Origin: a virus
IMG/VR virus record: IMGVR_UViG_3300012205_000277
Span: 1 to 64,000 of that record
Direction: 5' to 3' (one strand)
Length of the DNA stretch: 64,000 nucleotides
Shown: in pieces, positions 18,647 to 55,006 of the stretch
Layout of the letters: every line of letters begins with the position of its first letter
How positions within the stretch are numbered: position 1 is the stretch's first letter
Translations under genes and position numbers: made by a program
Notes under the pieces: model-generated
What the model was told of the DNA's origin: nothing
The model's database searches: none
Seen by the model: the letters and a program-made list of their open reading frames with translations, nothing else

Positions 18647-18727
18647 GGCGGCACGGAGTGGGTTGGCTGGGCGGGATTTGGTCAGTCAGGAAGAGGCGTG
18701 CAACGATAAGGCATGGCAGGCATGGTT
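18647..18727 (+). ncRNA. Pentamer-repeat candidate guide RNA 2
   Basis: 13 pentamers 18650-18714, each starting with G, then GGCAGGC. Confidence 0.75.
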
Positions 18728-27333: not shown

Positions 27334-28701
27334 TCATTGCGGTTCTCCGAACATGTCCGGGGCGGCTTCCTCGAACCGCGTGTAATTGGATAGGAACACG
27401 AACCGGACCATGTCCGTCGGGCCGTTGCGCTGCTTGCCGATGATCAGTTCGGCTTCGTCGCGTTCTTCCTGGGTGGCGCTATGTTTGTACAGGTTCGGGC
27501 GGTGGATGAACAAGACCACGTCCGAATCTTGTTCAAGGCTCCCACTCTCGCGCAAATCGGATAGGTGCGGAGCGCGGTCTTCTTTGTCCGGAGCCCGGGT
27601 GAGCTGGCTCAGCGCCACGACCGGCACGCCAAGATTTTTCGCCAAGGCTTTTAAGCCGCGGCTGACGTCGGCAACTTCTTCCTGGCGGCTGCGCAGATGC
27701 CGCGAGCTAGCTACCAGCTGCAAGTAATCCACGATCACCAGGCTCAGGCCATGCTCGTTTTGGACGCGTTCTGCGCGCGCCATGATTTCACCGACGGTAG
27801 CGAGGGAAGAATCGTCGATCCACAGCGGGGCCGGAGCGATCGTCGCGAGCGCGGTAACGATTCTCTGCCAGTCTTCTTTGGTGAGGTGCCCGGTCCTGAA
27901 TTTATGCGCATTGATTTTGGCTAGAGACGCAAGCAAGCGCAGGAGGAGCGAATCGGCGCTCATTTCGAGGGAAAACAGCGCGACCGGCTGGTGGCTCCGG
28001 ATGGCCACGTTTTCCGCGATGTTCACGGCCAAAGACGATTTCCCGCAACTGGGGCGCGCCGCGAGGATCGTTAGTTCCCCGGGCTGGAGGCCGGCAAGGG
28101 CTTTATCGAGTTCGCCGTAGCCGGTAGGGAGTCCGGTAACGTTTTTGCCTTCTTTATAGATTTTCTCCAGCCGCTCGAAATTCCCTTTGACGATGCCCAT
28201 GACCGGCCGGAGGCTTCCGGCCGACTGCAGTTGCTGCAGCTGGTTCAGCCGGCTGCGGGCTTCTTCGAGGACGGCGGCCGAGGTTTCTCCTTCAAATGCA
28301 TGGAGCTGGACGGCTTCGGCCATGCGGATGATCTGCCGCAATACGGCTTTTTCCTTGACGATTTTCGCGTAATGCTCGACGTTCGAAATTTTCGGCATGC
28401 CGTCGACCAGGCTCGCGAGGTAGGCGGTGCCGCCGATGGCCTCGAGTTCCTGTTCCTGGGCCAGGCGGTCGTTGACGGTAACGAGATCGACGGGGATCCC
28501 GGCGGTGTGCAGGGCCAGGAAATGCCCGAAGATATGCACGTGCGGGGCATAGTGGAAATCTTCGGGCTCGAGGAGCTCCTGGGCGGCGAGCAAGGCTTGG
28601 TTGTTGGCCAAAATGCCGCCTAGGACAGAACGTTCGGCTTCATGGTTGTTCGGCAAAGCCGGAGCGATCGCTTTGGCCTGCGTCATTTTTGGGCTAGCCA
28701 T
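27334..28701 (-). CDS. dnaB: Replicative DNA helicase
   Basis: EAERSVLG, AARPSCGKS, FSLEM, IVDYLQL, LSQL.R, DLRESGSLEQD.D, KQRNGP. Confidence 0.97.
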   Translation of the reverse strand: MASPKMTQAKAIAPALPNNHEAERSVLGGILANNQALLAAQELLEPEDFHYAPHVHIFGHFLALHTAGIPVDLVTVNDRLAQEQELEAIGGTAYLASLVDGMPKISNVEHYAKIVKEKAVLRQIIRMAEAVQLHAFEGETSAAVLEEARSRLNQLQQLQSAGSLRPVMGIVKGNFERLEKIYKEGKNVTGLPTGYGELDKALAGLQPGELTILAARPSCGKSSLAVNIAENVAIRSHQPVALFSLEMSADSLLLRLLASLAKINAHKFRTGHLTKEDWQRIVTALATIAPAPLWIDDSSLATVGEIMARAERVQNEHGLSLVIVDYLQLVASSRHLRSRQEEVADVSRGLKALAKNLGVPVVALSQLTRAPDKEDRAPHLSDLRESGSLEQDSDVVLFIHRPNLYKHSATQEERDEAELIIGKQRNGPTDMVRFVFLSNYTRFEEAAPDMFGEPQ

Positions 28702-31052: not shown

Positions 31053-31519
31053 GGATGCCAAGTCGTCTCATTGTGAGATTTCCTGTGCTCCTACAATCCA
31101 ACCCGAAATGAAACCCACAAGACCAAACTAATTTCTTTCCCCGAGTAGTACTACCCCCCCCCTCGGAGTTTACCTGATTGACTTCCACTCCTCCCTTGCC
31201 ACACTCAATTCTGGCCTGCTCTTAGGCCTAAAGAAAAAGGCAAATTTTTGCCCGCGGATCCCGTCCCCATGACCCGTGAACGTAAAACCGATTCCGCCCT
31301 CAAATCCGCCTGGTTCTCCGGCCTCCTCTCCCCCTCCCTCGCCGCCGATTCCTCCCTCCTCGATTCCTTCCCCGATGGCCATTCCGCCGACCGCTCCCTC
31401 TCCCGCTTCCTACGGAGAAAAAAACTCAGAATCCTGCCCCAAAAATTCCTCGAGTCCAAACGCGCCTGAAAGTCCCGAATTTTACCCAAAAATTTTCGCG
31501 GGGCTAGAAGAGCCCTGGC

Positions 31520-31635
31520 GCGCATCGCATCCCAGAAGTTATGAGCCGCATCGCATCGCAGATCGTCGCGCCTTGCGGCTCTGTGTCGCATGAGCGCGCA
31601 TCCTAGGACGCATCGCAACCGCATCGCATCGCAGG
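31520..31635. repeat. CGCAT short-repeat tract
   Basis: About 10 copies of CGCAT in ~115 bp. Confidence 0.65.
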
Positions 31636-31765
31636 CTAGGGCGCATGCTGGCCGCACTGGGAGAGAGGCGCGCAAAATAAAAAAGCGCAATAGGGGCGCA
31701 TTAGGGCGCATTTAGAATCTAGGGCAAGTTAGGTAGTAGGTTGCTGGCTGGGAGTCTGTAGGAGC

Positions 31766-35758: not shown

Positions 35759-37390
35759 ATGCCGGCAGCCAAACCCACCACCCCCGAGCCGGACATCCCC
35801 CAGGAGCTGATCGACAAGTTCACGCCCAAAAGGTTAATCACTGTCAAACTCCGGAATCCCGCCGGGCATCCGGGGCAGGAACGGATCTGCTATTCCACCA
35901 AGAAACGCATCATCGTAAGGGCCGGAAGACGTGGAGGCAAAACTTCCGCCAGTGCCATCAAGGCGGTGATGTCGTTTTTAGGGGACCCCGATAGAGGCAT
36001 TCCACCGAAACGCGTCCTTTATGCCGCGCCGACCATCGACCAGGTGCGTAAATTCTGGGAAGAAGTCAAACGCGCCTTGCACGAAGGCCTGGCCTACAAG
36101 GTGTATTACAAAAACGAGACCAACCATATTATCGAGCCCTTCGGAACTCCGCCGGTGATGCCCGGAGAACGTCCCCGGCACCCACGGATCCGCGCCAAAA
36201 CCGCCTTCAACGCGGAGAGTTTGCGTGGAGATTTCGCCGACGTTTTGATCCTCGATGAATACCAACTGATGGATGAAACCGCCTGGACGGAAGTCGGCGC
36301 GCCGATGCTGATGGACAATAACGGGGATGTGATTTTCATATACACGCCACCCAGCCTCGAAAGCCGCTCGGCATCGAAGGCGCGCGACCCGCAGCATGCC
36401 GCGAAAATGTACCGCGAACATAAAGACGATCCGTTGTGGGAATGCATCCATTTCGCGAGCAGAGAAAACCCGCACATCTCTGAAGAAGGGATCGAAGAAG
36501 CCAGTAAGAACATGACGGCGCTCGCCTACCGCCAGGAGATTCTCGCCGAAGATACCGAAGAAATTCCGGGAGCCTTGTGGACGCGGAAAATCATCGAAGA
36601 GTCCAGAGTGAAATCGATTCCGTGCGAACTGCGGCGGGTGGTGGTGGCGGTCGATCCGAGCGGCGGAAACCTTACCGAAGTCGGGATCATGGCGGCCGGC
36701 GAAGGCGCCGACGGGCATTACTATGTGCTGCGCGACGCTTCGATGAAAGCCAGCCGGCCGAAAGAATGGGCGCAGCGCGCGGTGAACCTGTATTACGAGC
36801 TCCTCGCCGACCGGGTAATCGCGGAACGCAACTACGGCGGGGACATGGTCGAAGAAACGCTACGTAACGTGGATGAAAACGTGTCTTACCACGACGTTGT
36901 TTCTTCGCGCGGGAAACTGGTGCGCGCCGAGCCCATCCTGGCGCTGTTCCAGCAAAACAAGATGCACCTGGTATGCCGCTGCGGGCAATCGCCCTGCCGC
37001 GAATTCGCGGAACTGGAAGAAGAACTCGTCACGTACACGGCCGAAGCCGGCCAGAAATCGCCGAACCGCTTAGACGCCATGGTCTTTGCAGGAACGGAAC
37101 TTTCCGGCATGGGCAGCCTCGGCCTGCTCGACCTGTTCAAGTCCGGGCGCGCCGGGAAAATGGCGGAACGGGAAATCGCGAAGATCAAGACGTCGACCTC
37201 GCTGGCCGCGATCGCGACAAACGACAAGACCCCGCGGTGCACGAATTGCGGAAGCTTGACGCTAAGCGTGCTCAGCCGCGGGCCGCAATTCGACGGCGGG
37301 ATCGAGTACCGCTGCCAGGCTTGCGGAAACCAGCAACCCAAGCCCACCATTTTGGGAATCGGCAGCCGACGAATCCAATTGGAAAAATAA
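35759..37390 (+). CDS. terL: Terminase large subunit with C-terminal zinc ribbon
   Basis: AGRRGGKT, LRG...D.LILDE, VAVDPS, E.NYGG, K..RAEP, SPNRLDA. Confidence 0.95.
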   Translation: MPAAKPTTPEPDIPQELIDKFTPKRLITVKLRNPAGHPGQERICYSTKKRIIVRAGRRGGKTSASAIKAVMSFLGDPDRGIPPKRVLYAAPTIDQVRKFWEEVKRALHEGLAYKVYYKNETNHIIEPFGTPPVMPGERPRHPRIRAKTAFNAESLRGDFADVLILDEYQLMDETAWTEVGAPMLMDNNGDVIFIYTPPSLESRSASKARDPQHAAKMYREHKDDPLWECIHFASRENPHISEEGIEEASKNMTALAYRQEILAEDTEEIPGALWTRKIIEESRVKSIPCELRRVVVAVDPSGGNLTEVGIMAAGEGADGHYYVLRDASMKASRPKEWAQRAVNLYYELLADRVIAERNYGGDMVEETLRNVDENVSYHDVVSSRGKLVRAEPILALFQQNKMHLVCRCGQSPCREFAELEEELVTYTAEAGQKSPNRLDAMVFAGTELSGMGSLGLLDLFKSGRAGKMAEREIAKIKTSTSLAAIATNDKTPRCTNCGSLTLSVLSRGPQFDGGIEYRCQACGNQQPKPTILGIGSRRIQLEK

Positions 37391-37465
37391 TGCAATGCCT
37401 GCCCTGCCTCGTTCGCGCCGTTTCTAACCCTGTTCGTGCCAATGCTCAACTCTCCTCGCCTGATT
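37391..37465 (-). ncRNA. Pentamer-repeat candidate guide RNA 3
   Basis: 11 units (two are 6 nt) plus GGCAGGC; promoter TTGACA(37498-37493)-N18-TAGACT. Confidence 0.7.
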
Positions 37466-37541
37466 CCAAGTCTACTATCTTACCCGGCAGGTTGTCAAGG
37501 ATTGCTTGACCTGGGGAAACAAAGGCGGTAAGTTGATGGGT

Positions 37542-38273
37542 ATGCAGTTCTCGACCGCCGGCGTGATCCAGTATTTATCGATGCGGCTGGACTTCGTGCG
37601 CGACATCGACCATGAAGTGATCCGGCGGGTGGCGAACTACGTCGTCAAAGGCGACTGGACGATGGCCGAAGCGGAAGAATTTTTAAGGCAAGTCCAGGCG
37701 CAAGATGTGCGCTTGAAAAGAGGCAATCCCCCGAGAAAGGCGGTTCCCTCTTTGACCCGCACGGCCACGCAAATGCTGCAGCAGCAGGAAGCCGCCAGGG
37801 AGCGAATGAAAACGGTTTTTAATGACATGATGGGGCCAGGCTATTGGGAAAGCTGCGAGGACCAGCGGCGGGCGCGGTTAGCCGCATTGGACACGTTCGG
37901 AATCCCGCCGGAGAGGGTGCCACCAGACGGTGCGAACCGGGCGACGGCGGAAGTCTTGCAACAGGAACAGGAATCGGCCACCGAGCAAATGATTATAGCT
38001 TTCAATGAACTGATGGGAGAAAACTATTTACAAATCCCCTCTGCGCTCCGCACGGCCGAGCAGCAAGGCCAGATTGCGAGAGCCGAACTGCAGCGCCAGG
38101 ATGAGGAGAATCGCTATCGGCTCGAATTGCTGAAAGACATGCCTTTTATCGTGCCGGGAGAAACTGTCGATGAATTGCGTGCTAGAAAGTCGAGTCCAAG
38201 TTCACCGGGAATCATACAGACCGAGCCGGAAACCTCTTTTCTTACCGGCAAGCGCAAAATTGTTTTGGAGTGA
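37542..38273 (+). CDS. Hypothetical protein with internal duplication
   Basis: RTATQMLQQQE...FNDMMG / RATAEVLQQEQE...FNELMG; promoter TTGACC-N17-TAAGTT immediately upstream, possibly leaderless. Confidence 0.65.
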   Translation: MQFSTAGVIQYLSMRLDFVRDIDHEVIRRVANYVVKGDWTMAEAEEFLRQVQAQDVRLKRGNPPRKAVPSLTRTATQMLQQQEAARERMKTVFNDMMGPGYWESCEDQRRARLAALDTFGIPPERVPPDGANRATAEVLQQEQESATEQMIIAFNELMGENYLQIPSALRTAEQQGQIARAELQRQDEENRYRLELLKDMPFIVPGETVDELRARKSSPSSPGIIQTEPETSFLTGKRKIVLE

Positions 38274-38368
38274 ATCATGACACGCTGGCTGAAAAATGAA
38301 TGGCGATTCATTAAATATATTTTCCGGTATGCGGAGTTTAAGCCAAAGGAATAATCATGTGCTTCCCG

Positions 38369-38809
38369 ATGAAAGATGCCATCGAAAAAGAATGGCGCTA
38401 CGCTGGCCTCGATTGCGTGGTGGCACGCGCCGACCTGGCGCACGCCGTGGGTGGCTGGGAAGGTGTGATGAAGCATCGCTGCGGCTATGTGCGCGTTCCG
38501 GCCGGACACCGCTTCCATGGACAACCGTACGACGATATCGATGTGGACGTGCATGGCGGACTGACGTTTGCCGAAATCGAGCCGTGCGCCCATGAAGACG
38601 GCATCGGCTATTGGATTGGATTCGATTGCGCCCATTCCGGAGATGCCAACTGCCCGCCAGGCGATCCGGACGCCGTGCGTCTTGGACTACGCAGTATGCT
38701 CCAGGGCCATTACTGGACGCTCGATGAGGTCCAGGCGGAAACCGAACGCTTGGCGGAACAAGTCCTCGCGGCTGCCGCTCTTGGCGGCCGGCACATCGTT
38801 GTGGCATAA
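38369..38809 (+). CDS. Conserved phage hypothetical protein
   Basis: CGYV.VP.GH..HG, VHGGLTF, GFDCAH.GD. Confidence 0.75.
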   Translation: MKDAIEKEWRYAGLDCVVARADLAHAVGGWEGVMKHRCGYVRVPAGHRFHGQPYDDIDVDVHGGLTFAEIEPCAHEDGIGYWIGFDCAHSGDANCPPGDPDAVRLGLRSMLQGHYWTLDEVQAETERLAEQVLAAAALGGRHIVVA

Positions 38810-39010
38810 ATGAAAGAAAAAGGGTGGCTTGGCCGGGTTATCTGTTTCCTGCATCTGTGCACGCTCGATCAGATCAGATACGACTGGGATCCGTTCATTC
38901 AGCACAAGCGGCGGAAATTCGGGATTTGCTCGCGGTGTTTGCGCAGTAAACGCCTGCCGGCACCTTGGCTTTGCCCGCATTGCCACGCCTTCCACTGGAG
39001 ATAATTCGGC

Positions 39011-39040
39011 TTGACAGCGCGGGCGGAGTTCTGGCAAAGT
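39011..39040 (+). promoter_or_regulatory. Putative promoter of the pth-like/tRNA unit
   Basis: TTGACA-N18-CAAAGT with TG extension. Confidence 0.5.
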
Positions 39041-39049
39041 CTTCGCATC

Positions 39050-39487
39050 ATGACCTAGATTCCACAAGAAGAATCTTACGTTTTTTGTTTCATCCGCACT
39101 AACCTCCCGACCGAACATCAATTTGTGCAAGCCCTTCATTCCGTCTATCATCTGGCACAACTCCGCCGCGAAGATGGCACGCCCAACATCGTCCTGATCG
39201 GGTTGCCGGATGCGGCGGCGCTCCGGCGCGCGGAACAGAAGCTGATTGCCGCGAAGATCCCGCATTTTGTTTGGGAAGAGCCGGATTATAATTTTGGGCT
39301 TACGAGCATTGCGACGGCGCCGATCCGCGGCGATGAGCGCAAGGCTTTGGCCAATTATCGAGTTTACAAAGCACCGGTGGTGTCAAGTAGCACGTCGCCC
39401 TCTAAAGGTGAAAGTGTCTGCTCAATACAGACCCGGTGCGCCAATTCCAGTGGGGCAGGCACGGTTGCTAGCGCTGTGCGGGTTTGA
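39050..39487 (+). CDS. PTH2/PTRHD1-like peptidyl-tRNA hydrolase with in-frame TAG at codon 3; ORF runs into the tRNA genes
   Basis: MT*IPQEESYVFCFIRTNL...QALHS...IVLIGLPD...IPHFVWEEPD...TSIATAP...YRVYK. Confidence 0.75.
39371..39443 (+). tRNA. Atypical tRNA, anticodon CUA (amber)
   Basis: GCACCGG/CCGGTGC-G-CCA; D stem GTGT/GCAC with loop CAAGTA lacking GG; stem TCGCC/GGTGA with loop CT-CTA-AA; T stem GTCTG/CAGAC with loop CTCAATA. Confidence 0.8.
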
Positions 39488-39504
39488 GTACCACTGCCCC
39501 ACCA
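39452..39504 (+). ncRNA. 53-nt D-armless tRNA-like RNA with CUA centred in its loop
   Basis: GGGGCAG/CTGCCCC-A-CCA; stem GCACGGT/GCTGTGC with loop TG-CTA-GC; mini T arm GGT-TTGAGT-ACC. Confidence 0.65.
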
Positions 39505-39510
39505 GTTTGA

Positions 39511-39585
39511 CCGCGTGTAGCTCAGTGGCAGAGCAGGGACTTCTAAACTCCTTGGGCGCGAGTTCGATTCTCGCCACGCGGTCCA
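39511..39585 (+). tRNA. Amber suppressor tRNA (CUA)
   Basis: CCGCGTG/CACGCGG-T-CCA; canonical TAGCTCAGTGG and GTTCGATTC; loop TT-CTA-AA; C31-C39 mismatch. Confidence 0.88.
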
Positions 39586-39638
39586 AATGTCAAGTTTCCG
39601 GCGCAAAAACTTGACATTTAGAAACGGAATCTTATACT
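39585..39638 (+). promoter_or_regulatory. 13-bp perfect inverted repeat overlapping the promoter of the ARPP-1 gene
   Basis: AAATGTCAAGTTT-N9-AAACTTGACATTT; TTGACA-N16-TATACT. Confidence 0.75.
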
Positions 39639-39687
39639 CTTCGACGGAACTACCTGCGGAAGAATCCGCATCGAAAAGGAGAACCTG

Positions 39688-40794
39688 ATGCCAAACCTCG
39701 AGCTATCCGTCAATTCCATTTGTAAAATCGTTTCCGAAGAAAAATACGGTTTCAAATTCGGCAAGCCCGATCGTCCGTCGGCCGAATCGTTGTCTTGCAT
39801 CCTCCCGATCCTGCGCAAGACGGCGCAAGTCCGCCAATACGTGACGTATCCGGAAAGCGATCAAGTCCTCGTCCACGACTCCGGCAGCATCAACAAAGTC
39901 AACCTGCTCAATTCCTCGAAAGAAAATGTTTTCGTCCGCAGCGGAACGATTTTCGAGGGCAAAGGCACGCAAAGCCGCGCGTTGACGCGCAGTGCGGTGC
40001 TCTTTCCCGGCCAGGCGGTGGCGCTCGATGTGCGCTGCGTGCATGCCTCGCACGGGATCCGCAGCGGGTCGGCATTCGTTTACGGCGGGATCACCCCGCT
40101 GAGCGTCGATACGGCTTTCTATCGTTCCGGGTACACTCCGGGCGATCAGCACACCATGTGGAATACGGTAACGGCCAGCACCACTTCGATGAGCGGCATG
40201 TCGGCTGGCGAGGTCCCCGAACCGGTCCGCGGCAGCTTTGAAAAATGGGCTGGCGCCCCAAGGCGCGGAAGCCGTCGCAGCCTCATGGCTTCCGGCGGAA
40301 GCGTCGTCCAGGACTTCGGCAGAGCCGTCATTGGCGAAGCCGGCCATGAAACGTACCTGCCCAACGCTGACAACCTCAAAGAGAACTTCGATGCGTTCGC
40401 CAAGAACTTTGACGAGATCCTGTCGAAAGCGCGGCTGCATGACAACCAGGTCGGTCTCGGGCTGATTACCGACAAAGGATGCAAAACCGTTGAACTTTTT
40501 GATATAGGCAAATCCTGGGAAGCGGTCCACAAGGATTCTGTAAAACGCGTGGGCGCAGAATTGCTTCGCGGCGAGGACAAAACGAATGTGTTCGAATACA
40601 AGCCGGAGCATGCGGTCAATGCGGTTCGCGCGGTCCTTGGATTGCCGTTCAAAACCAACCTGATCTACCAACATAAGCCGTCGAACGGCGAGCCGCCGGT
40701 ATCGATCTTTGGATTGACGGCCGAGCGCTTCGTCGGCGAAGTGGTCGAGTTGGATTCGCGAGTGATCCACCTGGTCATTATTGAGACGGTGTAA
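39688..40794 (+). CDS. ARPP-1/DUF6569-like protein
   Basis: G.I..V.L.N.S...VF...G..F.G..TQ.R......L.PG....L.V.CV; Q..MW..V. Confidence 0.7.
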   Translation: MPNLELSVNSICKIVSEEKYGFKFGKPDRPSAESLSCILPILRKTAQVRQYVTYPESDQVLVHDSGSINKVNLLNSSKENVFVRSGTIFEGKGTQSRALTRSAVLFPGQAVALDVRCVHASHGIRSGSAFVYGGITPLSVDTAFYRSGYTPGDQHTMWNTVTASTTSMSGMSAGEVPEPVRGSFEKWAGAPRRGSRRSLMASGGSVVQDFGRAVIGEAGHETYLPNADNLKENFDAFAKNFDEILSKARLHDNQVGLGLITDKGCKTVELFDIGKSWEAVHKDSVKRVGAELLRGEDKTNVFEYKPEHAVNAVRAVLGLPFKTNLIYQHKPSNGEPPVSIFGLTAERFVGEVVELDSRVIHLVIIETV

Positions 40795-41058
40795 ACTCAT
40801 GGAATGGGTCTTACCGCCGAAGAACGCGAGAAATTCGCGGCCTATCTCGAGCAAAACGCCAGGGACACCGAGAAACTGGTGCAGCAACTGCTGAATCTCC
40901 CGGCAGGCCGGCAACTGGCCGCACGATTCGAGAAAGAAGCGGAGGCTTCCCGGATCATCGCGGAGAAATTGCGGAACACCCTGAGGCAGGAAATCAAATA
41001 ATCAAGGGTACTCGCTTGCTGTGGGACGCCCCAAGCTTTCCCCTTGATTATTTTTCCT

Positions 41059-41394
41059 CTATCCGACCGGAACGCCAAGCCCGAAGGAAATCTGTGCCGC
41101 CGGCCCGCTCACGATATCGATCGAGACCGCCCCGGTTGGACCCGGCGTCCCGTCCGTATTCGTCACCGCGGCATTGATCTGCACGGTCCCGAGCTTCGCT
41201 CCGCCGGCAATCACCCCGCTCGCGACCGTTCCGCTGGCAGGAGTGGCATCCGGCAACACCGTGGCACTGGCCGGGTCGCTCGAACTGACCGTGATCGTGC
41301 CGCCCGGCGCCAGCTGCGCCGGGTTTCCGTCCGCATCCACGGCGGTCAACTGGTAAGGCACCTTCTGAACGTCTTGCAATTGGAAATTGGACAT
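41059..41394 (-). CDS. Ig-like beta-sandwich protein
   Basis: L...DADGNP......SSSDP..ATV; GGAGG SD. Confidence 0.65.
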   Translation of the reverse strand: MSNFQLQDVQKVPYQLTAVDADGNPAQLAPGGTITVSSSDPASATVLPDATPASGTVASGVIAGGAKLGTVQINAAVTNTDGTPGPTGAVSIDIVSGPAAQISFGLGVPVG

Positions 41395-41609
41395 TTTGTA
41401 AATTTCCTCCTTTTTATTTCGGTAGTCCCAAAGAAAATTTCAATACCACTGCTGTACGCCCGTGTAAAGCATCCAGGATTTTCTGTTGCAAGACCAGGGA
41501 CTCTTTTTGCAGGTGCAGCGATAGCGCCAACTGGTTTCTGAGCAAAGCCAGGTTGTCTTCGATCTCGGTCAGCAACCGCCGGTCTTCCTTGCCGTAGAAC
41601 GTGAGCATT

Positions 41610-41876
41610 TTATTCGGCCTCGAGCCGGATGGCGCGAATGCCATCGAGCGGGAAACGGTCTACGGGGATTTCCGGGTCGGGAGTTGCGGCGAGATCCGCG
41701 CGGAGTCCGCGGTAATCCAATTCGGCGATCAGGCTGTCTCTCAGCCAGCGCCATTCCGGGGAAGTCATCACAAAGGTGGTCGTGAGAAAAGATAAATAAG
41801 AATCGGACAACAAGCGGATACGGGTGCCTTTATGCTTTCCGAATGGGATCACCGCCCTGCCATGCCGCCGTGCCAT
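41610..41876 (-). CDS. DUF3820-like protein
   Basis: IPFGKHKG..I..L..SYL.F. Confidence 0.65.
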   Translation of the reverse strand: MARRHGRAVIPFGKHKGTRIRLLSDSYLSFLTTTFVMTSPEWRWLRDSLIAELDYRGLRADLAATPDPEIPVDRFPLDGIRAIRLEAE

Positions 41877-42115
41877 GACGGTTATTCTGGCACGAGCGTC
41901 ACGATTTGGATATCGTTTTCAACGCGGACTTCGCTAACTTTCCACCAGACGGATCTTTCACAGATCGGATCGCCAACGGCATAAAGCCGGCTGTATAGCA
42001 TGGGCTCTTCCCAGAGAACATCACCGTCGTGGATATAGCGAATCGTGTTGATAACATCGGCCATGGAGAGTTCTCCTCGGGCGGAGTCTAACATATTTAG
42101 GGTGTAAGAAAGTAG

Positions 42116-42225
42116 TTGCAATCCGCCATGAGGTTACCTAGACTCTAGGCCACGTGCCGGTTGCTGCGAGCCGGAAAGGGTGAAACCCTCGCCCTCAAGG
42201 GCCCGCGCGGGGACAGGCCGGCACG
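42116..42225 (+). promoter_or_regulatory. Promoter plus structured 5' RNA
   Basis: TTGCAA-N17-TAGACT, then CGTGCCGG/CCGGCACG stem enclosing hairpins. Confidence 0.6.
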
Positions 42226-42249
42226 ATTGATTTTGGGGAGGAATCGGAA

Positions 42250-42687
42250 ATGGCGCGATGGGTGAAATGGTCGATTGGCGGTACCGCCGGCCTGGTCATA
42301 GCCTTCTTGTTCTATCTGGCCTTGTTTAATCATATCGCCATCAACGAAATCGGCGTAGCTTACAATTCCATCGGCGGCAAAGTCTGGGTGCAGGATCATC
42401 CCGGGTGGTATGTGACCGCGCCAACCGTGGAAGTGGCGGTCATCCCGACAGTCCCTTTGCGGGTAACGATACCTTCCGAAGCCAAGGTGATCAACACGAA
42501 AATCGTCCGGTTCAATCCCAAAGGCGTCGATGAATTTATCCGCCTGCAAGGCTTCAGTTATTTTTCAAATCAAGGAATCGAAAATATCCTGATGGGCTAC
42601 GCGTTTTCCGGACAGAAGTATCCTTTCCTGGATGTGCTGCAGGAAAGCGGCGGCGAGAACGCCACTTCCGCTCCGCTCCGGCAATGA
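42250..42687 (+). CDS. Short SPFH/band-7-like membrane protein
   Basis: N-terminal TM helix, I..NEIGV..N..GG......PGWY. Confidence 0.55.
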   Translation: MARWVKWSIGGTAGLVIAFLFYLALFNHIAINEIGVAYNSIGGKVWVQDHPGWYVTAPTVEVAVIPTVPLRVTIPSEAKVINTKIVRFNPKGVDEFIRLQGFSYFSNQGIENILMGYAFSGQKYPFLDVLQESGGENATSAPLRQ

Positions 42688-43110
42688 AATGGCGCATCGC
42701 GATGACGCTAAGCCTCGCGGCTGTTGCGGTGCGACTGCTGTATGGCTGGAGGCAACTCACGTTCCTCGTATGGACGGTTGCGGCGGTCATCAACCATGCG
42801 CATCCGCTTCTGACCGTATCGGCGATCGAAGGGACAGTGATTCTTGGCATCGTCAAGGCCTCGTGGTTGGCGGCAGGAAGGATTCTTGATTTTTGGATGG
42901 AGCTAAAATGGAAGTGCGTATCTCGCTATCGGAAGAGCAATTCAAGAAACTAGTTGCCGGCGAAATCGTGGACACCGAACTGCCCCATCCAGAGACTTAT
43001 GGTCTTGTCCCCATCAAGCTGGCGCTCCAGGATATCGGTTTCAAAGTCATGCTGCGCGCTGTTTATGATGCTATGGCCGCACAAGCCAAGAAGAACCGGG
43101 AAGCAGCCCG

Positions 43111-43305
43111 ATGAGACGCCGCTGGCTTACCGCCGAAGAGTACTCGCGGATCAAGGCGCTGCGCGGGCAAGGATTGACCTACCAACAGATTGCGTCGCGC
43201 TTTGGGATTCCGTTGCCGACGATCGAGACGATCGCGAGAGGCCGGTCGAAGCCGCATGTTTATGCCAAACTGAAACCGAGCGATACCCGGAGCGCGACCC
43301 GATGA
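43111..43305 (+). CDS. Helix-turn-helix protein
   Basis: GLTYQQIASRFGIP..TI..I..G. Confidence 0.7.
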   Translation: MRRRWLTAEEYSRIKALRGQGLTYQQIASRFGIPLPTIETIARGRSKPHVYAKLKPSDTRSATR

Positions 43306-44657
43306 AAACGTATTTCCGCAAAGTGAATGGTATGTACCATGTCGATGAGGAGGGTTATTTGGTCAAGACCAGCAATGGCGAGCGCGTGCCGCCAGAAGAG
43401 CCGCTGTTCATTTTGCGCGGCCGCGATGCGCTTGCTGTTGAAACCATTCATCATTACGTGGGATTGCTCGCTGGCAATGGAGGAGATCCGCAGAGAATGT
43501 TCGAACTTGGCGGCGTGGTTCACGATTTTTTGATGTTCAGGAAAGACCATCCCGAACGCATGAAACTGCCAGGGAGCACCAAAGGCAAATGATTGTCAAA
43601 GTCAAGATCGCGCCGTTTGAAAAATGGTGTGAGCCGATGCGGCAGGCCATGGCGCTTGCGCCGCCGCACCTTCTTCATAGATTTGGCCTTCCTATCGGCG
43701 TGGAAATTAGCATCGAAACGTCCTCAATGAGGACCACGCAAACGGTTATTCCCTGCGGTGGAAAAGAATGGCGCGTTGTGGAGTTGCCGGCCGAGATCAC
43801 GCCGTTTGATGCGGAAACCGGCGAAGTGAAGAAGGGCGGACGCGGCTGGATTTGCGAGCATGTTCTCGAAATGGATTGAACTGAAAAAAATGGACCAGCA
43901 AGAAAGACTTGAAGCCGTCAAAGCCTCGGTCGAACAAGTCCGCCAACTGACTTTGCAAAGCTGGCCTTCGACCCACTCGAATCCCCCGGATATCGAGAAT
44001 TGGCGGACGACGATTGCCTGTCTGATTAAAAATTGCGATGAATTACAAAGGGCTCTGCGCCAGCAGCGTTGGATCGATGAGAATTTTGCTTCTTATGTGC
44101 TGGATCAATGCGAACGGGCAAAAATATCGACGCGCGCCGGCCATCCCATGGATTGGATGGCGCTGATGGACAGCTTAATCGTTGCCTGCCGCGACGTTCT
44201 TGACCGATGATCTGCCCGAAGGAGTGACGATGCCGCTATTTGAATGTGAGCAATGCCATTGCGTGGACAACACAGCGCTTACAAACTTCTGGCAAGCGCA
44301 CATTGAGGAAAAGCCTCAGCTATGCAGCGCGTGCGACCCTGAAATTGGGAAGTGGCATGATAAGTTTCCGAGGATTCCAGCAGCCGAATACACGGAGAAG
44401 TATCCGAAGGCCAGAAAAGTTGAATATCCGGCTAAGGGCGCGGCGCAAAGCCGTGGGTGAGGAGACGGCGGGCCGATGAAAAGACGAGCATTGCAGATGG
44501 AATTCGTACCCTAGCCCAAGCAGCCCATCCCGCTCGCTGCATTGGCTATCCTGATTGCGATGGTGACCTAGAAGGCGAGAAGCATAGTGAGAAGTGCAAG
44601 GCAGCCCATCCCAGAGTTTCAGGCGCAACTAGCGCCGCGAAGGATGGTGATTGACAA

Positions 44658-44870
44658 ATGCTAAATCCGTTGTTTGAAGTCCATATGCTGAACGAGCAGG
44701 GCAAGGGACTGGCAAAGTCGTTGGCTGGGGAATTTCATGGCTTCCTGTGTTCTATCGAGGGCATGTGCGGCACGGAAGGCCGGGAAATGGCAATCGTGCG
44801 AACAAAGTTAGAGGAGGCGTCGTTTTTCGCAAAGAAGGCGATGGCAAATCAGAAGTGCAACCAGCAATAA
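44658..44870 (+). CDS. Acb2/Tad1-like helical-hairpin protein
   Basis: GREMAIVRTKLEEASFFAKKAMA. Confidence 0.6.
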   Translation: MLNPLFEVHMLNEQGKGLAKSLAGEFHGFLCSIEGMCGTEGREMAIVRTKLEEASFFAKKAMANQKCNQQ

Positions 44871-45967
44871 ATAGCGGTGACTTGATGCGCGTGAGGACTT
44901 GGGGCTGCGGTGCGCAGTTAGCTTGAAATCAGAAACCACAAGCAACAAGCGCAGGACAGCCACAGCCCCAAGATTTCAGGAGAAATGGGCCATGAGCGAA
45001 GCCAAACGCGACTTTTATGGTGATCTGGTTGGTCCTGACCGGCAACCTGAGCAGGAGCGAGCCATGAGCGAAGTGGCAAAGCTAGTTGAGAAGTGGCGCA
45101 AAGAGCAATTTACATATTCAGGCATCCCAGACTGGATGGCCGTATTTCTGGCAGTTAGAACATGCGCCGACGAACTGGAATCCGCGCTACGAGCGGATGA
45201 ACAAGCACCAGAAAGCACAGGAGGGATTTACAAAGGAGGTACCCGCTACGAGGGCACGAACGAACGGGCCGCGAGTGAGACTGAAGACTATCCCGGCCAG
45301 GCTTTCTTCCATGAGAACAATCCGAATATCAAACGGGCTGAGGAGCGAATTGTGAGCCGGGAAGAGTTCAATGGCAGTATCAGTGATGAGGCTGCGCAGT
45401 CCACCCTAGAGGAAAGAGCGAGGGAGTTTGCCGACAAAATAGCTGGCCTGCTTGACCCCCAGCAACTTGCGACAATTGGAAAAGGTGGCCGCGTTCCTTC
45501 TAGCACACTTCGGTATAACGTTCGACAGGCGAAGAAAGCAATAGAACCTTTGGCCTTAGAAATGCTCACCAGCGTCCAAGCCGAAGCGGAAGGCCATGTC
45601 GTCATCCGAATTAGGAACGTCCTCGCGGTGCTCGCAGGTGCTCCATTTGACAATCTCACGCCGGAAATTCAGGGACTAGTAAAACATTGGCAGCCAGCAA
45701 TCCAAGCCAAGTTGGAAACGGCGCTCCAGCCCCAAGCCGCAAGTGCTGGGGCGCTGAGTGCTATAAAAGAGAAAATACACTGGTATGTCGGCAGTGATTC
45801 AATGAGTGACTGTTGGGCAGAGATCTTGCCGCTGCTCGCTGCCCACGATCAAAAGGTGCGAGAAGGGATGCTGGATTTGCTACGAAAATGTCCGGAGTGG
45901 GCCACACCAAAAGCAAATTGGCTAAAGGCCGCCCTGGCCTCCCGAACAGAGGAGAAGGAGACGAGTC

Positions 45968-46165
45968 ATGGCAAGACTTAGCCCAAGGTCCAGAGAGCTA
46001 GTCACGTTGCTGATCTGTGGGCTTACTATCAAAGAAGCGGCATCCTACATGGACATTTGCCACGGCGCAGCCAGGAAACTCTTGATGAAAGCAAGAATCA
46101 AGCTCGGCTGTCGAACTGCCTGGCAACTGCTATACGAACTTGGGATGGAGTGTAATCTCAAATGA
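45968..46165 (+). CDS. LuxR/sigma4-type helix-turn-helix protein
   Basis: LSPR.RE...L...GLT.KEAA..M.I........AR.KLG. Confidence 0.75.
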   Translation: MARLSPRSRELVTLLICGLTIKEAASYMDICHGAARKLLMKARIKLGCRTAWQLLYELGMECNLK

Positions 46166-48075
46166 GCGAAGCAACCGAAATAGTCCACTGGCCCGGCCAG
46201 GACACTCCGATGTGTGACCGTCATACGTTGCAAGCGAAGCGTATCGGTCAGGCTATGGGAATCACCGTCAGCTCTACTCCATGGCCGGTAGAAGGCACGA
46301 TCTGCAAGAACTGCGAGAACGAAGCAAAGAAGGCAGCAGCCAAATAGTGAGGTAGCAATGGACGAACGACGCTCCGGAAAAAATAAATCACACTCGACTT
46401 TGGAGCAAAAGGTGGAATGGCTGCTGAGGCATCCTCTCTTCCTGAAAGAGATTCTGGACAAGAAGAAACTTGTGGCGGAGATGAAGAAGGACAAACTGAT
46501 CGCGCCGTCCACCTATTGGAGAGATATCAATCTGGAGGATGCGATTAAGCAGGCGAAGATTAGGACATGAGACTGGGGATGAAAAGAGGACTGCCCGGAA
46601 TGCGCAGTCCTCAGCCCTAGCCCAGACACCTGCCAAACCGAAGTTTACTTCGCGCCAGCGGATTTTTCAAGGATTGAACCAATGGTATTTTCTGCAAAAG
46701 AAAGAGGTTTGAGGTCGCCAAGTAAAAGCATTTTTTTTTGGAGCAGCCGACAGACTTCGAGGCGCACCTCGAGCGGCCATGCCTCATCGTGGATTACATG
46801 GTTGTGGATATCCAGTAACATGTACCAGCGCCGCATACGGGAGCAGCCTCTGTTCTGTTACCTGTAAAATTGGTTTAATTCGTACGCTTAAACCACTACG
46901 ATAGCAATAGTACCGGGAGGCAAGTACGGAAGTACTCTCCATGATCTCTCCCATTGACGTCCACACCATAGAATCAATTGATACCGACGTGAATAAATTC
47001 GCCGGTGGCTTCATCGTCGCGCGGGCCGAAGGGAATACTCTCGTCGAGGCCTATCATTGTGATACGCAGTCGGAAGCGGACAGTCTGGCCCGCAGCTTAT
47101 TCGAGGACAAACTAGGATATGTGGAAGTCTTTATCAAGGAAACCATTCATTGAGCGAAGAAAAACGCCCTTTCACGAAAGAGCAACCGCATTATGGAGAA
47201 TCGATTCTTCATTGCGGCCATCCCAATAGCCGGCCGCAGCACTTCTACAGTTTTGGCCCAGGCATGCCGGAGAAAGAATGGAAATCGCCGGATGGAAGAG
47301 CAGTGATGTCGCGCTGGATGGTGTTGTGCGATGATTGCAACAAAATCTATGGCTTCACGCCGCATTTGGCAATTCAAGCGGATGCCACATGGAAAGCGCT
47401 CGATCCGGTGATCCAAATACCGGAAGTAAGGAAAAATAAAATATGAGATCGATATCGCCAGTAATTCCCGGGATGGACCTGGAAGAAACTGTTTTTGCAA
47501 AGCATCAGCCGCAATACAATCCGTTGCCGGCCGTCATGGTCGATGGCCGCGTGATCAGCCGGTGGAAGCTGACCTGGCGTGAACGGTTCAAGCTGCTCGT
47601 AACCGGGAACCTTTGGCTGACGCTGTTGACTTTCGGGCAGCCGCTCCAGCCGATTCTCATCGAGATAGACTCACCCAAACGTTATCTCGAAGAAGAGAAA
47701 GAAGAAACGCTGGCCGACGCTTAAAGTTTTCAATATCCGTGCACTGCACAGCCTCGGCTTCTAAAAAGCACGGTGCGTTCGCTTTTGTTACATCGAGTGC
47801 ATGTCCACAAACAATCGAGGCACCCACACCGAAGAGTGATATTTATTTTCTCCCACCGATGCCTGAAGATTTTACAAAGCAGGCCCAGCTTCATAGCGAC
47901 ACTCGATTGAGCAATGCAATTTCCGGAGGGGAAAGTTTGCCAGCGCACAGGAAACAGATCCAGGAATCCTCGAGTTTTTCCGTGCGCGCCGGGCAAAGTG
48001 GCCCGGGATCGCCAAGACGCCGCGGCAGCGTGCACGTTCGCAAGTGTCCGCATTTGGAGCAAAAATGAGTGTGGG

Positions 48076-49203
48076 TCATGGGCATTGGGATTCCTTCCGA
48101 TCGTTGTAAGTCGGCCCATAGCCTTCGATGCGAACCAGTTTCCGGAATTCGGCTGGCAGCGGGTTTGGCGCCTGGTCCAGATGGTTCAAGGCAATCCAGT
48201 CGACCCCGCCGCAAATAGCGAGTGCTTTGCGGAATAGCTGCTCGTCGAAACGGCCGTACCGGAATGCTCCGGGGAATCCTGGCTCGTTGTGCGGCTCGGG
48301 ATAGCTCAGAGTCGGATCTTCGGTCGGGAATGCTCCGAGGCCGTGCCGTGTGTAGTAGGTACGGATAATGCCGACGCGCGTGCGTTTGCCATCATAGCCG
48401 GATTCATTCAGGAGCGTATCCGCATTGTGGAATGTGCAATCCGTCCACGTATTGAATCCCGGCTCGCCATGATTCTCATCGAGCAGCACGCCCTGGGCCC
48501 CTTCGAAGATGGCGCAATCTGTCTCGGCGAGCAAGGTTTTCAGATGCCCGCGGTCGACCACCTTCGCCGGCCAGTTTTTGTACCAGCTCCAGCACACGTC
48601 GATCAGATCGTCTTTCTGCAGCGTTGGATCGACATAGCGTACGAATGGCTTGGTCATAAACCCGGCGGCGCTCAATTCATCCGAGGCCCAGAGTTCGATA
48701 AACTTAAGTTTCTGGCGAACTAAAGTTTCATTTTTTAGGTCGCCGGCGAACAGTGCCCGATCGCCAAACTCCAGATGGAATTGGCGGCACTTGCCGATGC
48801 CCTGGCCGCAAGTGTTCGTGCGGTTGCCTGGAAGAGTCAAGAGGCGGTTCAATTCTCTGTGGAAAGGGGTGACGATTAATGCTTCGGCGTCGACCGTTGT
48901 ACGCTCCCAGGCGTCAGTGACGCCAAGTGATGCCAAATGCTCAGCTTCTCTCATAGCATTTATTGGATTGTAAAGCATAAATCTTGAGATATGCGTGCGC
49001 ACACCGGGATGGAAAGTGCCACTCCCGAATTGCTGGAAGATATGATGCCGGCCGTCGGGTGTCACTACGGAATGCCCTGCTTGGCAGCCTCCGGAATAGC
49101 GGACGACAAGCCCGGCATTATGCCAAAAAGTAAGTGCGTCAACTGTACTGCCTTTGCCGCAGTCGCCAAAACCCAAGCCGCAGACGAGGAAACTTTGCTT
49201 CAC
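48076..49203 (-). CDS. purA: Adenylosuccinate synthetase-like protein
   Basis: GLGFGDCGKG, GGCQAGH, FEGAQG.LLD, Y.TRHG.G. Confidence 0.88.
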   Translation of the reverse strand: MKQSFLVCGLGFGDCGKGSTVDALTFWHNAGLVVRYSGGCQAGHSVVTPDGRHHIFQQFGSGTFHPGVRTHISRFMLYNPINAMREAEHLASLGVTDAWERTTVDAEALIVTPFHRELNRLLTLPGNRTNTCGQGIGKCRQFHLEFGDRALFAGDLKNETLVRQKLKFIELWASDELSAAGFMTKPFVRYVDPTLQKDDLIDVCWSWYKNWPAKVVDRGHLKTLLAETDCAIFEGAQGVLLDENHGEPGFNTWTDCTFHNADTLLNESGYDGKRTRVGIIRTYYTRHGLGAFPTEDPTLSYPEPHNEPGFPGAFRYGRFDEQLFRKALAICGGVDWIALNHLDQAPNPLPAEFRKLVRIEGYGPTYNDRKESQCP

Positions 49204-49220
49204 AATCCCTCCTAAATTAA

Positions 49221-49247
49221 GATAGGGCCGCGATTAACGGCCCTATC
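49221..49247 (-). terminator. Terminator-like hairpin between RNA 4 and purA
   Basis: GATAGGGCCG/CGGCCCTATC followed by TTAATTT. Confidence 0.55.
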
Positions 49248-49249
49248 CA

Positions 49250-49331
49250 TTTGACGTGCCTGCCACACCCAGCCCTGGCTCGACCGGTCTTTCCATGCCT
49301 TTGCATTCCAAGGCCCGCCTGCAGCGTCAAA
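49250..49331 (-). ncRNA. Pentamer-repeat candidate guide RNA 4
   Basis: 11 G-initial pentamers plus GGCAGGC, closed by a TTTGACG/CGTCAAA stem. Confidence 0.75.
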
Positions 49332-55003: not shown

Positions 55004-55006
55004 TGA

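What the first reader, a model, noticed from the sequence alone, without database searches (positions are those of the whole stretch)
37016..37498. RNA 3, convergent with terL, decodes to a terL nuclease-domain allele
The NN string is GA GA GA TT AC CA TT AC GC GA AG (taking the last two bases of the two 6-nt units), which reads as E-E-E-L-T-Q-F-T-A-E-S. The resident sequence at 37016-37048 is EEELVTYTAEA, just upstream of the SPNRLDA motif. Six of 11 are exact, with conservative changes. The RNA has its own promoter (TTGACA-N18-TAGACT).
Basis: seen in the sequence. Interest (0 to 1): 0.85.

Follow-up and report, generated by a model that had tools for sequence, protein, structure and literature searches.

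The report
Solo VIPR guide RNA beside terL
The short repeat tract after the phage's DNA-packaging gene (terL) is a guide-RNA gene of the recently described CRISPR-like VIPR system; its two-letter code matches a sister strain's version of terL better than the phage's own, so it probably serves competition between related phages.

Summary
On the minus strand at 37498-37381 a sigma-70-type promoter (TTGACA-N18-TAGACT) is followed by 13 pentamers, each starting with G.

Read by "two bases read, one skipped", the variable dinucleotides match terL codons 420-430 (37016-37048):
- 7/11 units against the resident gene.
- 9/11 units (20/22 bases, the first 8 in a row) against a sister strain's allele, EEELTSYTGET.

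The same code works for the phage's other arrays. The best case is 13/13 units, between a relative's array and this genome.

This is the published VIPR system (bioRxiv 10.64898/2026.04.26.720920, .720927, 2026.10.15.759431): Vipr protein filaments hold GGY and present NN to double-stranded DNA, skipping the wobble base.

No vipr gene is detectable in this 92-kb, about 60%-complete contig or in a complete relative. RNA 3 is therefore best called a solo vrRNA.

Two things differ from the papers:
- At least 10 promoter-driven vrRNA genes are scattered over the genome.
- Most lie within about 0.6 kb of the resident, mismatched copy of their target.

This scan has already reported VIPR arrays, and this linked layout, in other phages.

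The parts
37469..37498 (-). Sigma-70-type promoter of the vrRNA gene: -35 TTGACA at 37498-37493, an 18-nt spacer, -10 TAGACT at 37474-37469
   Evidence: The promoter scan gives 10/12 matches and this is the only site in 36900-37700; shuffles average 0.2 sites. It is conserved in sister strain L069. In the relative G001 the promoter is kept although the transcribed body differs.
37404..37460 (-). Guide part of the vrRNA: 11 repeat units, GGCGA GGAGA GTTGA GCATT GGCAC GAACAG GGTTA GAAAC GGCGC GAACGA GGCAG. The presented dinucleotides are GA GA GA TT AC AG TA AC GC GA AG.
   Evidence: The units are read directly from the sequence. G is at position 1 of every unit. The dinucleotides match terL 37016-37048 at 7/11 and the L069 allele at 9/11.
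37381..37403 (-). 3' part: GGCAG GCATT GCA, then TTATTTTTCC. It carries the GGCAGGCA motif shared by the phage's other arrays and is the likely vrRNA tail. It overlaps the terL stop codon on the other strand.
   Evidence: The motif (A/G)TGGCAGGCA recurs near the 3' end of R1, R2, R4 and the G001 arrays. These units do not match the target. No intrinsic terminator was found.
37016..37048 (+). Resident near-cognate site in terL, codons 420-430 (EEELVTYTAEA), mismatched at units 4-6 and 11
   Evidence: translation; matches. Against L069, the only amino-acid differences between residues 292 and 467 fall at 418, 424, 425, 428 and 430.
35759..37390 (+). terL, the large terminase subunit (543 aa), the gene whose alleles the guide spells
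   Evidence: Pfam Terminase_6N and Terminase_6C; 44 related loci.

Best explanation
RNA 3 is a vrRNA gene of a VIPR (Viral Interference Programmable Repeat) system.

**Mechanism, as published for SUSP1.** One Vipr (Cas7-like RAMP) protomer binds each pentamer. It buries G1-G2-Y3 and presents N4-N5. The presented dinucleotides pair with double-stranded DNA while every third target base is flipped out. The bound filament blocks transcription.

**What this gene does, as inferred.** Its 10-11 guide units are aimed at the terL nuclease-domain codons 420-430 as they occur in sister strains (EEELTSYT...). The resident terL differs at three or four units, which puts it below the published 0.8 identity threshold.

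No vipr gene is seen in the contig. RNA 3 is therefore most likely a solo vrRNA that uses a Vipr protein supplied from elsewhere: the unassembled part of the genome, a co-resident element, or the rival phage itself. Its likely job is to silence a rival's packaging gene during co-infection.

It belongs to a set of at least 10 scattered vrRNA genes, most of them lying beside the resident, mismatched copy of their target.

**Shown here:**
- the repeat anatomy;
- the promoter motif;
- the code and its statistics;
- the cross-strain matches.

**Inferred:**
- transcription of the RNA;
- loading onto Vipr;
- silencing of the target;
- benefit to the phage.
For: **Repeat family**
- G at unit position 1 in 99% of 135 units, G at position 2 in 50%, C at position 3 in 50%, positions 4-5 variable.
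- The tracts show no consistent fold of their own; R3 has z = +1.8.

**Code**
- Only unit positions 4-5 match nearby DNA at stride 3.
- Local shuffle tests give R2 p<=0.003, R3 about 0.007, R8 about 0.01, R10 <=0.003.
- Other unit positions give p about 0.9.
- The genome-wide best hit lies within about 0.6 kb of the array for R2, R3, R4 and R8, and for both G001 arrays.
- The matches found in the tests start at unit 1 and span about 8-11 units.
- The skipped base is the wobble position in the clear coding cases, in either orientation.

**Cross-strain matches**
- The G001 array matches G000 9311-9349 at 13/13 units (26/26 bases), but its own copy at 8/13; that copy has an extra codon.
- R2 matches G001 at 10/13 and its own genome at 9/13.
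- R3 matches the L069 allele at 9/11 and its own at 7/11.
- The L069 guide matches the G000 allele at 9/11 and its own at 8/11.

**Target site**
- It is the only variable patch in 176 residues of TerL between the two strains.

**Identity with VIPR**
- Papers read.
- A Vipr profile built here hits PDB 36pp 'SUSP1 Vipr protein' at E = 7e-18.
- The same profile hits a gene directly upstream of an 842-nt pentamer array in the related phage G003 at E = 3e-52.
Against: - No vipr gene was found in the 92-kb contig. Three searches came up empty: HMM six-frame search at E<=10, hhalign against all 389 ORFs (best probability 11%), and G-loop motif scans.
- None was found in the complete 179-kb relative G002 either.
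- Only 6 of R3's 13 units are canonical GGY, and two units are 6 nt long.
- No perfectly matching terL allele was found: an exact-pattern scan of viral contigs gave nothing.
- Self-avoidance is not clean. L069 carries almost the same guide and matches its own terL at 19/22 bases, the same as it matches G000's.
- No expression data are available.
- How many mismatches this (unknown) Vipr tolerates is not known.
Confidence: 0.75

Rival explanations
1. Relic vrRNA. The array is a decaying remnant of a VIPR system that this lineage has lost. It is kept only by chance or by linkage and no longer acts.
For: - No vipr in G000, G001 or the complete relative G002.
- The repeats are degenerate: 6/13 are GGY and two units are 6 nt.
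- In G001 the same promoter drives an unrelated, non-periodic insert.
Against: - The promoter and the G periodicity are intact in G000 and in L069, against a background of 88.5% nucleotide identity.
- The three guide units that differ from the resident gene (units 4-6) equal the sister allele at all six bases.
- At least 10 such genes each keep their own promoter or terminator.
- The published solo vrRNAs of vipr-null phages and satellites are described as functional hijackers (10.64898/2026.10.15.759431).
Confidence: 0.12
2. Self-regulation. The RNA regulates the phage's own terL, either as a partly matched VIPR guide or simply as a convergent antisense transcript that runs into the 3' end of terL.
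For: - The promoter points into terL and no terminator lies between them.
- The resident site is the best match in the genome.
- L069 matches its own gene at 19/22 bases.
Against: - Across the family, self matches are always imperfect (7-9 of 11), while the one perfect match is to another strain's genome.
- The resident identity of 16/22 (0.73) is below the 0.8 threshold used in the papers.
- The target patch shows concentrated amino-acid change, which fits escape rather than conserved regulation.
Confidence: 0.08
3. Decoy. Like the satellite-borne solo vrRNAs, RNA 3 exists to soak up or misdirect a rival phage's Vipr protein rather than to silence terL.
For: - Solo vrRNAs that redirect a helper phage's Vipr are documented.
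- This contig has no vipr gene.
Against: - Decoy guides in the paper point at multi-copy host repeats.
- Here the guides point at single-copy essential phage genes and track rival alleles.
Confidence: 0.04
4. Coincidence. The periodic tract is a degenerate microsatellite and the match to terL is numerology.
Against: - Family-level statistics, the position-specific controls, and the 13/13 and 9/11 cross-strain matches.
- The code is experimentally established elsewhere.
Confidence: 0.01

Closest known systems
Type II VIPR system of Escherichia phage SUSP1 (Vipr + vap1 + four vrRNAs); bioRxiv 10.64898/2026.04.26.720920 and 10.64898/2026.04.26.720927
   Same: - The guide is made of 9-16 pentamers with a conserved G-G-Y and hypervariable NN.
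- The 3' part does not take part in pairing.
- The target is read as NN plus one skipped base.
- The skipped base falls on the codon wobble position.
- Sites occur on either strand, with no flanking motif.
- The targets are genes of competing mobile elements.
   Different: - There is no vipr or vap gene next to the array, or anywhere in the contig.
- The vrRNA genes are not clustered at one locus; they are scattered over at least 10 intergenic sites, each with its own promoter.
- The repeats are more degenerate: only G1 is invariant.
- The tail is a short GGCAGGCA motif, not a demonstrated pseudoknot.
- The target is the homologue, in sister strains, of the gene next door.
Solo (orphan) vrRNAs of VIPR-null SUSP1-like phages and F5 satellites; bioRxiv 10.64898/2026.10.15.759431
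   Same: - vrRNA genes sit on elements that lack vipr.
- They are predicted to use a Vipr made by another element.
- Self-match scores are lower than matches to rivals.
- Guides are aligned to the wobble position.
   Different: - The published cases have 1-2 solo vrRNAs left at the site of a vipr-vap1 deletion, or carried in satellites. They target vipr genes, other vrRNAs, satellites or host REP repeats.
- Here there are many solo vrRNAs, each linked to the resident mismatched copy of an essential or accessory phage gene: terL, a portal-like gene, a purA-like gene and small genes.
Class 1 CRISPR crRNA-Cas7 filaments
   Same: A RAMP protomer is bound per guide segment, and a thumb breaks the guide-target duplex periodically (as stated in the VIPR papers).
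   Different: - Pairing is 2 nt per 5-nt guide unit and per 3-nt target unit, instead of 5 of 6.
- There is no repeat-spacer array, no adaptation genes and no PAM.
Free-standing homing endonuclease genes of T4-like phages (seg/mob). This is an analogy of layout only, drawn from my general knowledge.
   Same: A selfish intergenic insert acts on the neighbouring conserved gene of related phages, while the carrier's own copy is resistant. Inteins occupy exactly this terL site in other relatives.
   Different: Nothing here indicates DNA cleavage or copying of the element. VIPR of the described phage types silences rather than cuts.

Membership tests
VIPR vrRNA | Tract of 9-16 tandem pentamers with conserved GGY and variable NN (YNNGG); degenerate forms NNNGG, YNNNG and NNNNG are accepted by the authors | tested here: met
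   There are 13 units, all with G at position 1. Six are canonical GGY and two are 6 nt long. The family profile is G 0.99, G 0.50, C 0.50, N, N. The paper's definition was read.
VIPR vrRNA | NN positions are hypervariable between relatives while the G scaffold is kept | tested here: met
   The G000 and G001 arrays at the same locus cannot be aligned in their bodies, although the flanks are 85-89% identical. The G000 and L069 R3 arrays differ within the unit 6-7 stretch (guide dinucleotide 6) and from unit 11 on.
VIPR vrRNA | Targets follow the 1-nt skip rule, with the skipped base on the codon wobble position, on either strand | tested here: met
   Controls using other unit positions are negative.
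VIPR vrRNA | Conserved 3' tail (a pseudoknot in the SUSP1 clade) that caps the filament | tested here: inconclusive
   The motif (A/G)UGGCAGGCA is shared at the 3' ends. No common fold was found. Pseudoknots were not tested.
VIPR system (complete) | A vipr gene (about 20-kDa RAMP with RRM core, G-loop and thumb) in the same element | tested here: not met
   Profile A4 finds SUSP1 Vipr (PDB 36pp) at E = 7e-18 and the G003 gene at E = 3e-52. It finds nothing in G000, G001 or G002 at E<=10. hhalign reaches at most 11% probability. Caveats: G000 is about 60% complete, and Vipr proteins are very diverse.
VIPR system (complete) | An accessory vap gene beside vipr | not tested
   With no vipr locus there is nothing to anchor a search. 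A ParB-like DNA-binding gene lies downstream of array R7, but nothing links it to VIPR.
VIPR vrRNA | Expressed as a roughly 100-nt small RNA that co-purifies with Vipr and represses a matching DNA target | not testable with these tools
   This needs small-RNA sequencing, pull-down and reporter assays.
Solo vrRNA (10.64898/2026.10.15.759431) | vrRNA carried by an element without vipr, with a self-match lower than the match to rivals | tested here: met
   No vipr was found. R3 scores 16/22 against its own gene and 20/22 against L069. The G001 array scores 8/13 against its own genome and 13/13 against G000. The result is provisional because the contig is incomplete.
TRAP-binding RNA (considered early) | 9-11 (G/U)AG triplets with 2-3-nt spacers, plus a TRAP (TrpBP, PF02081) protein | tested here: not met
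   The triplets are GGY or G-only, not NAG. PF02081 is absent from all six frames of the genome.

The most novel reading that the evidence does not exclude
In this phage lineage, vrRNA genes have left the VIPR locus and become many independent 'guide plus resistant allele' cassettes. Each solo guide sits next to the carrier's own mismatched copy of the gene it silences in sister strains. Guide and immunity are therefore inherited together by recombination. The guides may be loaded onto a Vipr protein brought in by the rival itself. Under this reading, terL codons 420-430 are a site of an ongoing allele-versus-guide arms race; inteins hit the same site in other relatives.
Probability: 0.35. Interest if true: 0.75.

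Novelty: new variant of a known kind. Interest (0 to 1): 0.6.

Why it matters
VIPR was described only in 2026, mainly from one E. coli phage clade in which the guides sit at a compact locus and target satellites or prophages.

This case differs in four ways:
- It comes from a soil phage lineage.
- It carries many dispersed, individually promoted guides and no recognisable effector gene.
- The guides are aimed at essential late genes (terminase, a portal-like gene) of near-identical sister strains.
- Each guide is physically linked to a resistant resident allele.

If this holds, it widens the known ecology of VIPR to warfare between strains. It suggests that guide genes can behave as selfish linked cassettes. 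It also gives concrete natural guide/target/escape triplets with which to measure the mismatch tolerance of the gapped code: R3 with the resident and L069 alleles, and the G001 array with the G000 and G001 alleles.

Finally, the gapped code could be recovered from raw sequence alone.

Tried and rejected
**Known RNA families**
- Rfam found only two tRNAs at gathering threshold, and nothing in 37300-37600 at E<=10 beyond chance-level hits.

**Early hypotheses for the 5-nt rhythm, all dropped once the code was confirmed**
- TRAP/HutP-like ring-protein binding site; PF02081 is absent.
- Two-tier G-quadruplex: the second G is not conserved.
- R-loop origin or a replication-oriented signal: GC skew follows gene orientation only.
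- Rho rut site on the complementary strand.
- Generic promoter-proximal element: only 4-5 of 14 strong promoters carry arrays.
- Translation of the tract: there is no consistent ORF.

**Literature**
- Searches on 'pentanucleotide' and 'periodicity' found nothing relevant.
- One preprint id could not be fetched.
- The VIPR papers surfaced only through earlier notes of this scan.

**Expression**
- No RNA holder is listed for this stretch.

**Strain variation from reads**
- Contigs of four soil runs laid on 36500-56400 show strain variants.
- The output did not list the differences at R3.

**Search for a perfect target**
- An exact-pattern search for a perfect 10-unit R3 target in viral contigs gave 0 hits.
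- The back-translated EEELTSYTGETGQK pattern gave 0 hits in viral contigs.
- The same pattern gave 1 hit in metagenome contigs, which is L069.

**Arrays in more distant relatives**
- No convincing target was found for the 34-unit array after terL in G002.
- None was found for the three G003 arrays either.
- Low-complexity GG phases dominate those scans.

**Search for vipr in G000**
- tblastn with the G003 Vipr, the HMM profile, hhalign, motif scans and a second profile search of the protein database all found nothing.

**Gene content**
- A whole-proteome Pfam pass, using crude gene calls, found no Hfq, CsrA, TRAP, reverse transcriptase or RAMP.
Full report
**What is at the coordinates**

terL occupies 35759-37390 on the plus strand (543 aa; Terminase_6N and Terminase_6C). 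Window 37016-37048 reads EEELVTYTAEA, directly before GQKSPNRLDA.

In the 115-nt spacer after the terL stop codon, the minus strand carries TTGACA (37498-37493), an 18-nt spacer and TAGACT (37474-37469). This is the only promoter-like site in 36900-37700; shuffles average 0.2 sites.

From 37460 downwards run 13 units that all begin with G:

GGCGA GGAGA GTTGA GCATT GGCAC GAACAG GGTTA GAAAC GGCGC GAACGA GGCAG GGCAG GCATT

They are followed by GCA and a T-rich stretch that overlaps the terL stop codon. No intrinsic terminator follows, and Rfam has no match.

**Is it more than chance?**

Three places in the window reach 6 or more, and an unrelated one reaches 7. The picture changes at family level.

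*The family of arrays.* The 92-kb genome is a single virus contig, about 60% complete, classed as a provirus. It holds at least ten tracts of the same kind:
- 9180-9249 (+)
- 18650-18725 (+)
- 37393-37460 (-)
- about 46590-46633 (-)
- 49238-49319 (-)
- 54998-55117 (-)
- 62057-62155 (-)
- 70647-70736 (-)
- 74372-74454 (-)
- 87130-87216 (-)

Their shared features:
- Several have a consensus promoter immediately upstream.
- Five have an intrinsic terminator immediately downstream.
- Strict 11/11 G periodicity occurs at four of them and in no shuffle.
- Over 135 units, position 1 is G in 99%, position 2 is G in 50%, position 3 is C in 50%, and positions 4-5 are unconstrained.

*The test of the code.* I parsed each array on the invariant G, took the two bases before each G, and compared them with DNA at stride 3.

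| Array | Best hit in the whole genome | Distance from array |
|---|---|---|
| R2 | 9/11 | within about 0.6 kb |
| R3 | 7/11 | within about 0.6 kb |
| R4 | 7/11 | within about 0.6 kb |
| R8 | 7/11 (7 of the first 8 units) | within about 0.6 kb |

Shuffled guides reach 6-7. Both arrays of the closest relative, G001, behave the same way.

In a local test (+/-1200 nt, 10 units, 300 shuffles of unit order):
- R2 and R10 give p<=0.003, R3 about 0.007, and R8 about 0.01.
- R4, R5 and R1 give 0.07-0.11.
- Dinucleotides taken from any other position of the unit give p about 0.9 throughout.

The matches found in these tests start at the first unit, run for about 8-11 units, and stop before the units holding the GGCAGGCA motif.

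In the clear coding cases the skipped base is the codon's third position. This holds whether the guide is sense or antisense to the gene.

**Matches between strains**

The closest relative, G001, is a 41.9-kb contig, syntenic with this genome and 80-89% identical in nucleotides.
- It has an array at the same place as array R1. The flanks align, but the bodies do not.
- Its dinucleotides match this genome at 9349-9311 (minus strand) in 13 of 13 units (26/26 bases). They spell YIYGGQKPGIIDE at the C-terminus of a small conserved gene.
- G001's own copy matches at only 8/13 and has an extra codon there.

For RNA 3:
- Protein searches found TerL variants that are 96% identical in this region and carry EEELTSYTGET (P0003-P0005).
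- A back-translated pattern recovered one such contig, L069 (WNFQ01016030.1), which is 88.5% identical in nucleotides over 3.7 kb.
- Its codons, GAa GAa GAa TTg ACg AGc TAt ACc GGc GAa ACt, match the R3 guide in 9/11 units and 20/22 bases, with the first eight units in a row.
- The resident gene matches at 7/11 units and 16/22 bases.
- Units 4, 5 and 6 mismatch the resident gene (CT, GT, AC) and equal the sister allele (TT, AC, AG).
- This includes the choice of TTG for Leu and AGC for Ser.

This needs the GGY-consistent register GAACAG | GGTTA | GAAAC.

Between G000 and L069, the only TerL amino-acid differences from residue 292 to residue 467 are at 418, 424, 425, 428 and 430.

Two caveats:
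- L069 itself carries an almost identical array. Its guide matches G000's allele at 9/11 and its own at 8/11, but both score 19/22 at base level.
- No perfect target was found.

**What it is**

Earlier follow-up notes of this scan on other phages named the VIPR system. I checked the three preprints.
- vrRNAs consist of 9-16 YNNGG repeats plus a 3' tail.
- NN specifies double-stranded DNA by a '1-nt skip rule', with the skip on the wobble position, on either strand and with no PAM.
- Binding silences transcription, and natural targets are competing mobile elements.
- Degenerate NNNNG repeats are recognised as a variant (10.64898/2026.04.26.720920).
- Cryo-EM shows one Vipr protomer per repeat. 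It buries G1, G2 and Y3 and presents N4 and N5, and the target's third base is flipped into a pocket (10.64898/2026.04.26.720927).
- Solo vrRNAs on vipr-less phages and satellites use another element's Vipr and match rivals better than self (10.64898/2026.10.15.759431).

RNA 3 fits the RNA side of this definition on every point I could test.

**The protein side**

In the more distant relative G003 (165 kb, complete), a 241-aa gene (L060 5913-6635, minus strand) lies directly upstream of an 842-nt pentamer array.
- Alone, it hits PDB 36pp 'SUSP1 Vipr protein' weakly (E = 0.019).
- It has 736 relatives of about 200 aa.
- A 71-sequence profile of the family hits 36pp at E = 7e-18 over its full length, and the G003 gene at E = 3e-52.

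The same profile finds nothing at E<=10 in G000, in G001 or in the complete 179-kb relative G002. G002 is syntenic with G000 and carries a 34-unit array at the same spot after terL. hhalign against all 389 ORFs of G000 reaches at most 11% probability. Motif scans are empty.

As assembled, therefore, RNA 3 and its siblings are solo vrRNAs. A very divergent Vipr, or one in the missing 40% of the genome, cannot be excluded.

**How it most likely works**

- Shown: the anatomy, the code, the statistics and the cross-strain matches.
- Taken from the papers: the filament, the gapped pairing and the silencing.
- Inferred: RNA 3 is transcribed from its own promoter and loaded onto a Vipr supplied in trans. 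It is directed at terL codons 420-430 of sister strains, blocking their terminase expression in mixed infection. The resident allele, at 0.73 identity, escapes.

**What differs from the published systems**

The guide genes are scattered rather than clustered, and most lie within about 0.6 kb of the resident near-cognate site, so guide and resistant allele are linked.

Inteins in other TerL relatives are inserted exactly in this window (..EL | intein ..THN | CSYTA..; P0015, P0019, P0031). This marks the site as a recurrent target of selfish elements.

**Verdict**

RNA 3 is a member of a kind first described in 2026, in an unusual dispersed, effector-less, allele-linked form.

Noticed in passing
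window 9180-9249(+), 18650-18725(+), 46590-46633(-), 49238-49319(-), 54998-55117(-), 62057-62155(-); beyond the window, G000 70647-70736(-), 74372-74454(-), 87130-87216(-): These are nine further vrRNA-type pentamer arrays. Several have a consensus promoter, and five have an intrinsic terminator whose 5' arm continues the G rhythm. Arrays R4, R5, R7, R8 and R9 sit in the 5' leaders of genes (purA-like, DUF5131, an operon ending in a ParB-like gene, Ku, and a 129-aa gene).
   Followed up: partly
window 9290-9556(-) and relative G001 8161-8247(+): The array of relative G001 matches the C-terminal codons of this small conserved gene (YIYGGQKPGIIDE, 9349-9311) at 13/13 dinucleotides. G001's own copy has an extra codon and matches at 8/13. 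This is the cleanest natural guide/target/escape set found here.
   Followed up: yes
window 18650-18725(+) and 19098-19130(-): Array R2 matches codons TVLWGFHAEVT of the 2H/Acb1-like C-terminal domain of the 1114-aa portal-like gene at 9/11 units. It matches G001's allele at 10/13.
   Followed up: partly
TerL homologues P0015, P0019, P0031 (position equivalent to window ~37025-37030): Inteins (Intein_splicing and Hint domains) are inserted exactly inside the R3 target window of terL, between ..EL and CSYTA... The site is therefore hit by two kinds of selfish element.
   Followed up: partly
window 39371-39443 and 39511-39585 (+): Two tRNAs have the anticodon CUA (amber suppressors). Several well-supported genes contain in-frame TAG codons (for example 2279-3139, 4369-5460 and 6979-8097), which suggests partial TAG recoding.
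   Followed up: partly
L060 (G003) 5061-5902(-) and 5913-6635(-): A related 165-kb phage has a bona fide vipr gene (the profile hits PDB 36pp at E = 7e-18) directly upstream of an 842-nt array of about 169 units. Its unit consensus is closer to A-G-C-N-N. No targets were found.
   Followed up: partly
L002/G001, terL-downstream spacer (L002 4600-4760, minus strand): The closest relative keeps the antisense promoter after terL. Behind it lies an unrelated, non-periodic insert of about 110 nt with its own terminator, in place of a pentamer array.
   Followed up: no
L001/G002 47911-48075: A relative whose TerL is 61% identical carries a 34-unit array at the same position, convergent with terL. The complete 179-kb genome has no detectable vipr gene.
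   Followed up: partly
window 18726-22070(-), 48076-49203(-), 54197-55003(-), 59959-61479(-), 62160-63287(-), 27334-28701(-): Gene content:
- a portal-like 1114-aa protein with a 2H/Acb1-like domain and a weak LAGLIDADG hit;
- a PurA-like adenylosuccinate synthetase;
- DUF5131;
- a ParB-like protein;
- a WGR domain plus ATP-dependent DNA ligase;
- a DnaB helicase.

Elsewhere in the genome there are Ku, Acb2/Tad1-like, SpoU methylase, ASCH and sigma-70 region 4 hits.
   Followed up: partly
window 31502-31670: This is a run of CGCATCGCATC-type short repeats in the gap between the leftward and rightward gene blocks. The cumulative GC-skew minimum falls at 31630. It may be an origin or iteron region.
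   Followed up: no
window 37230-37330 (+): TerL has a C-terminal extension with two CxxC pairs (CTNCGS...CQACGN), a zinc-ribbon-like tail shared with its nearest relatives.
   Followed up: no
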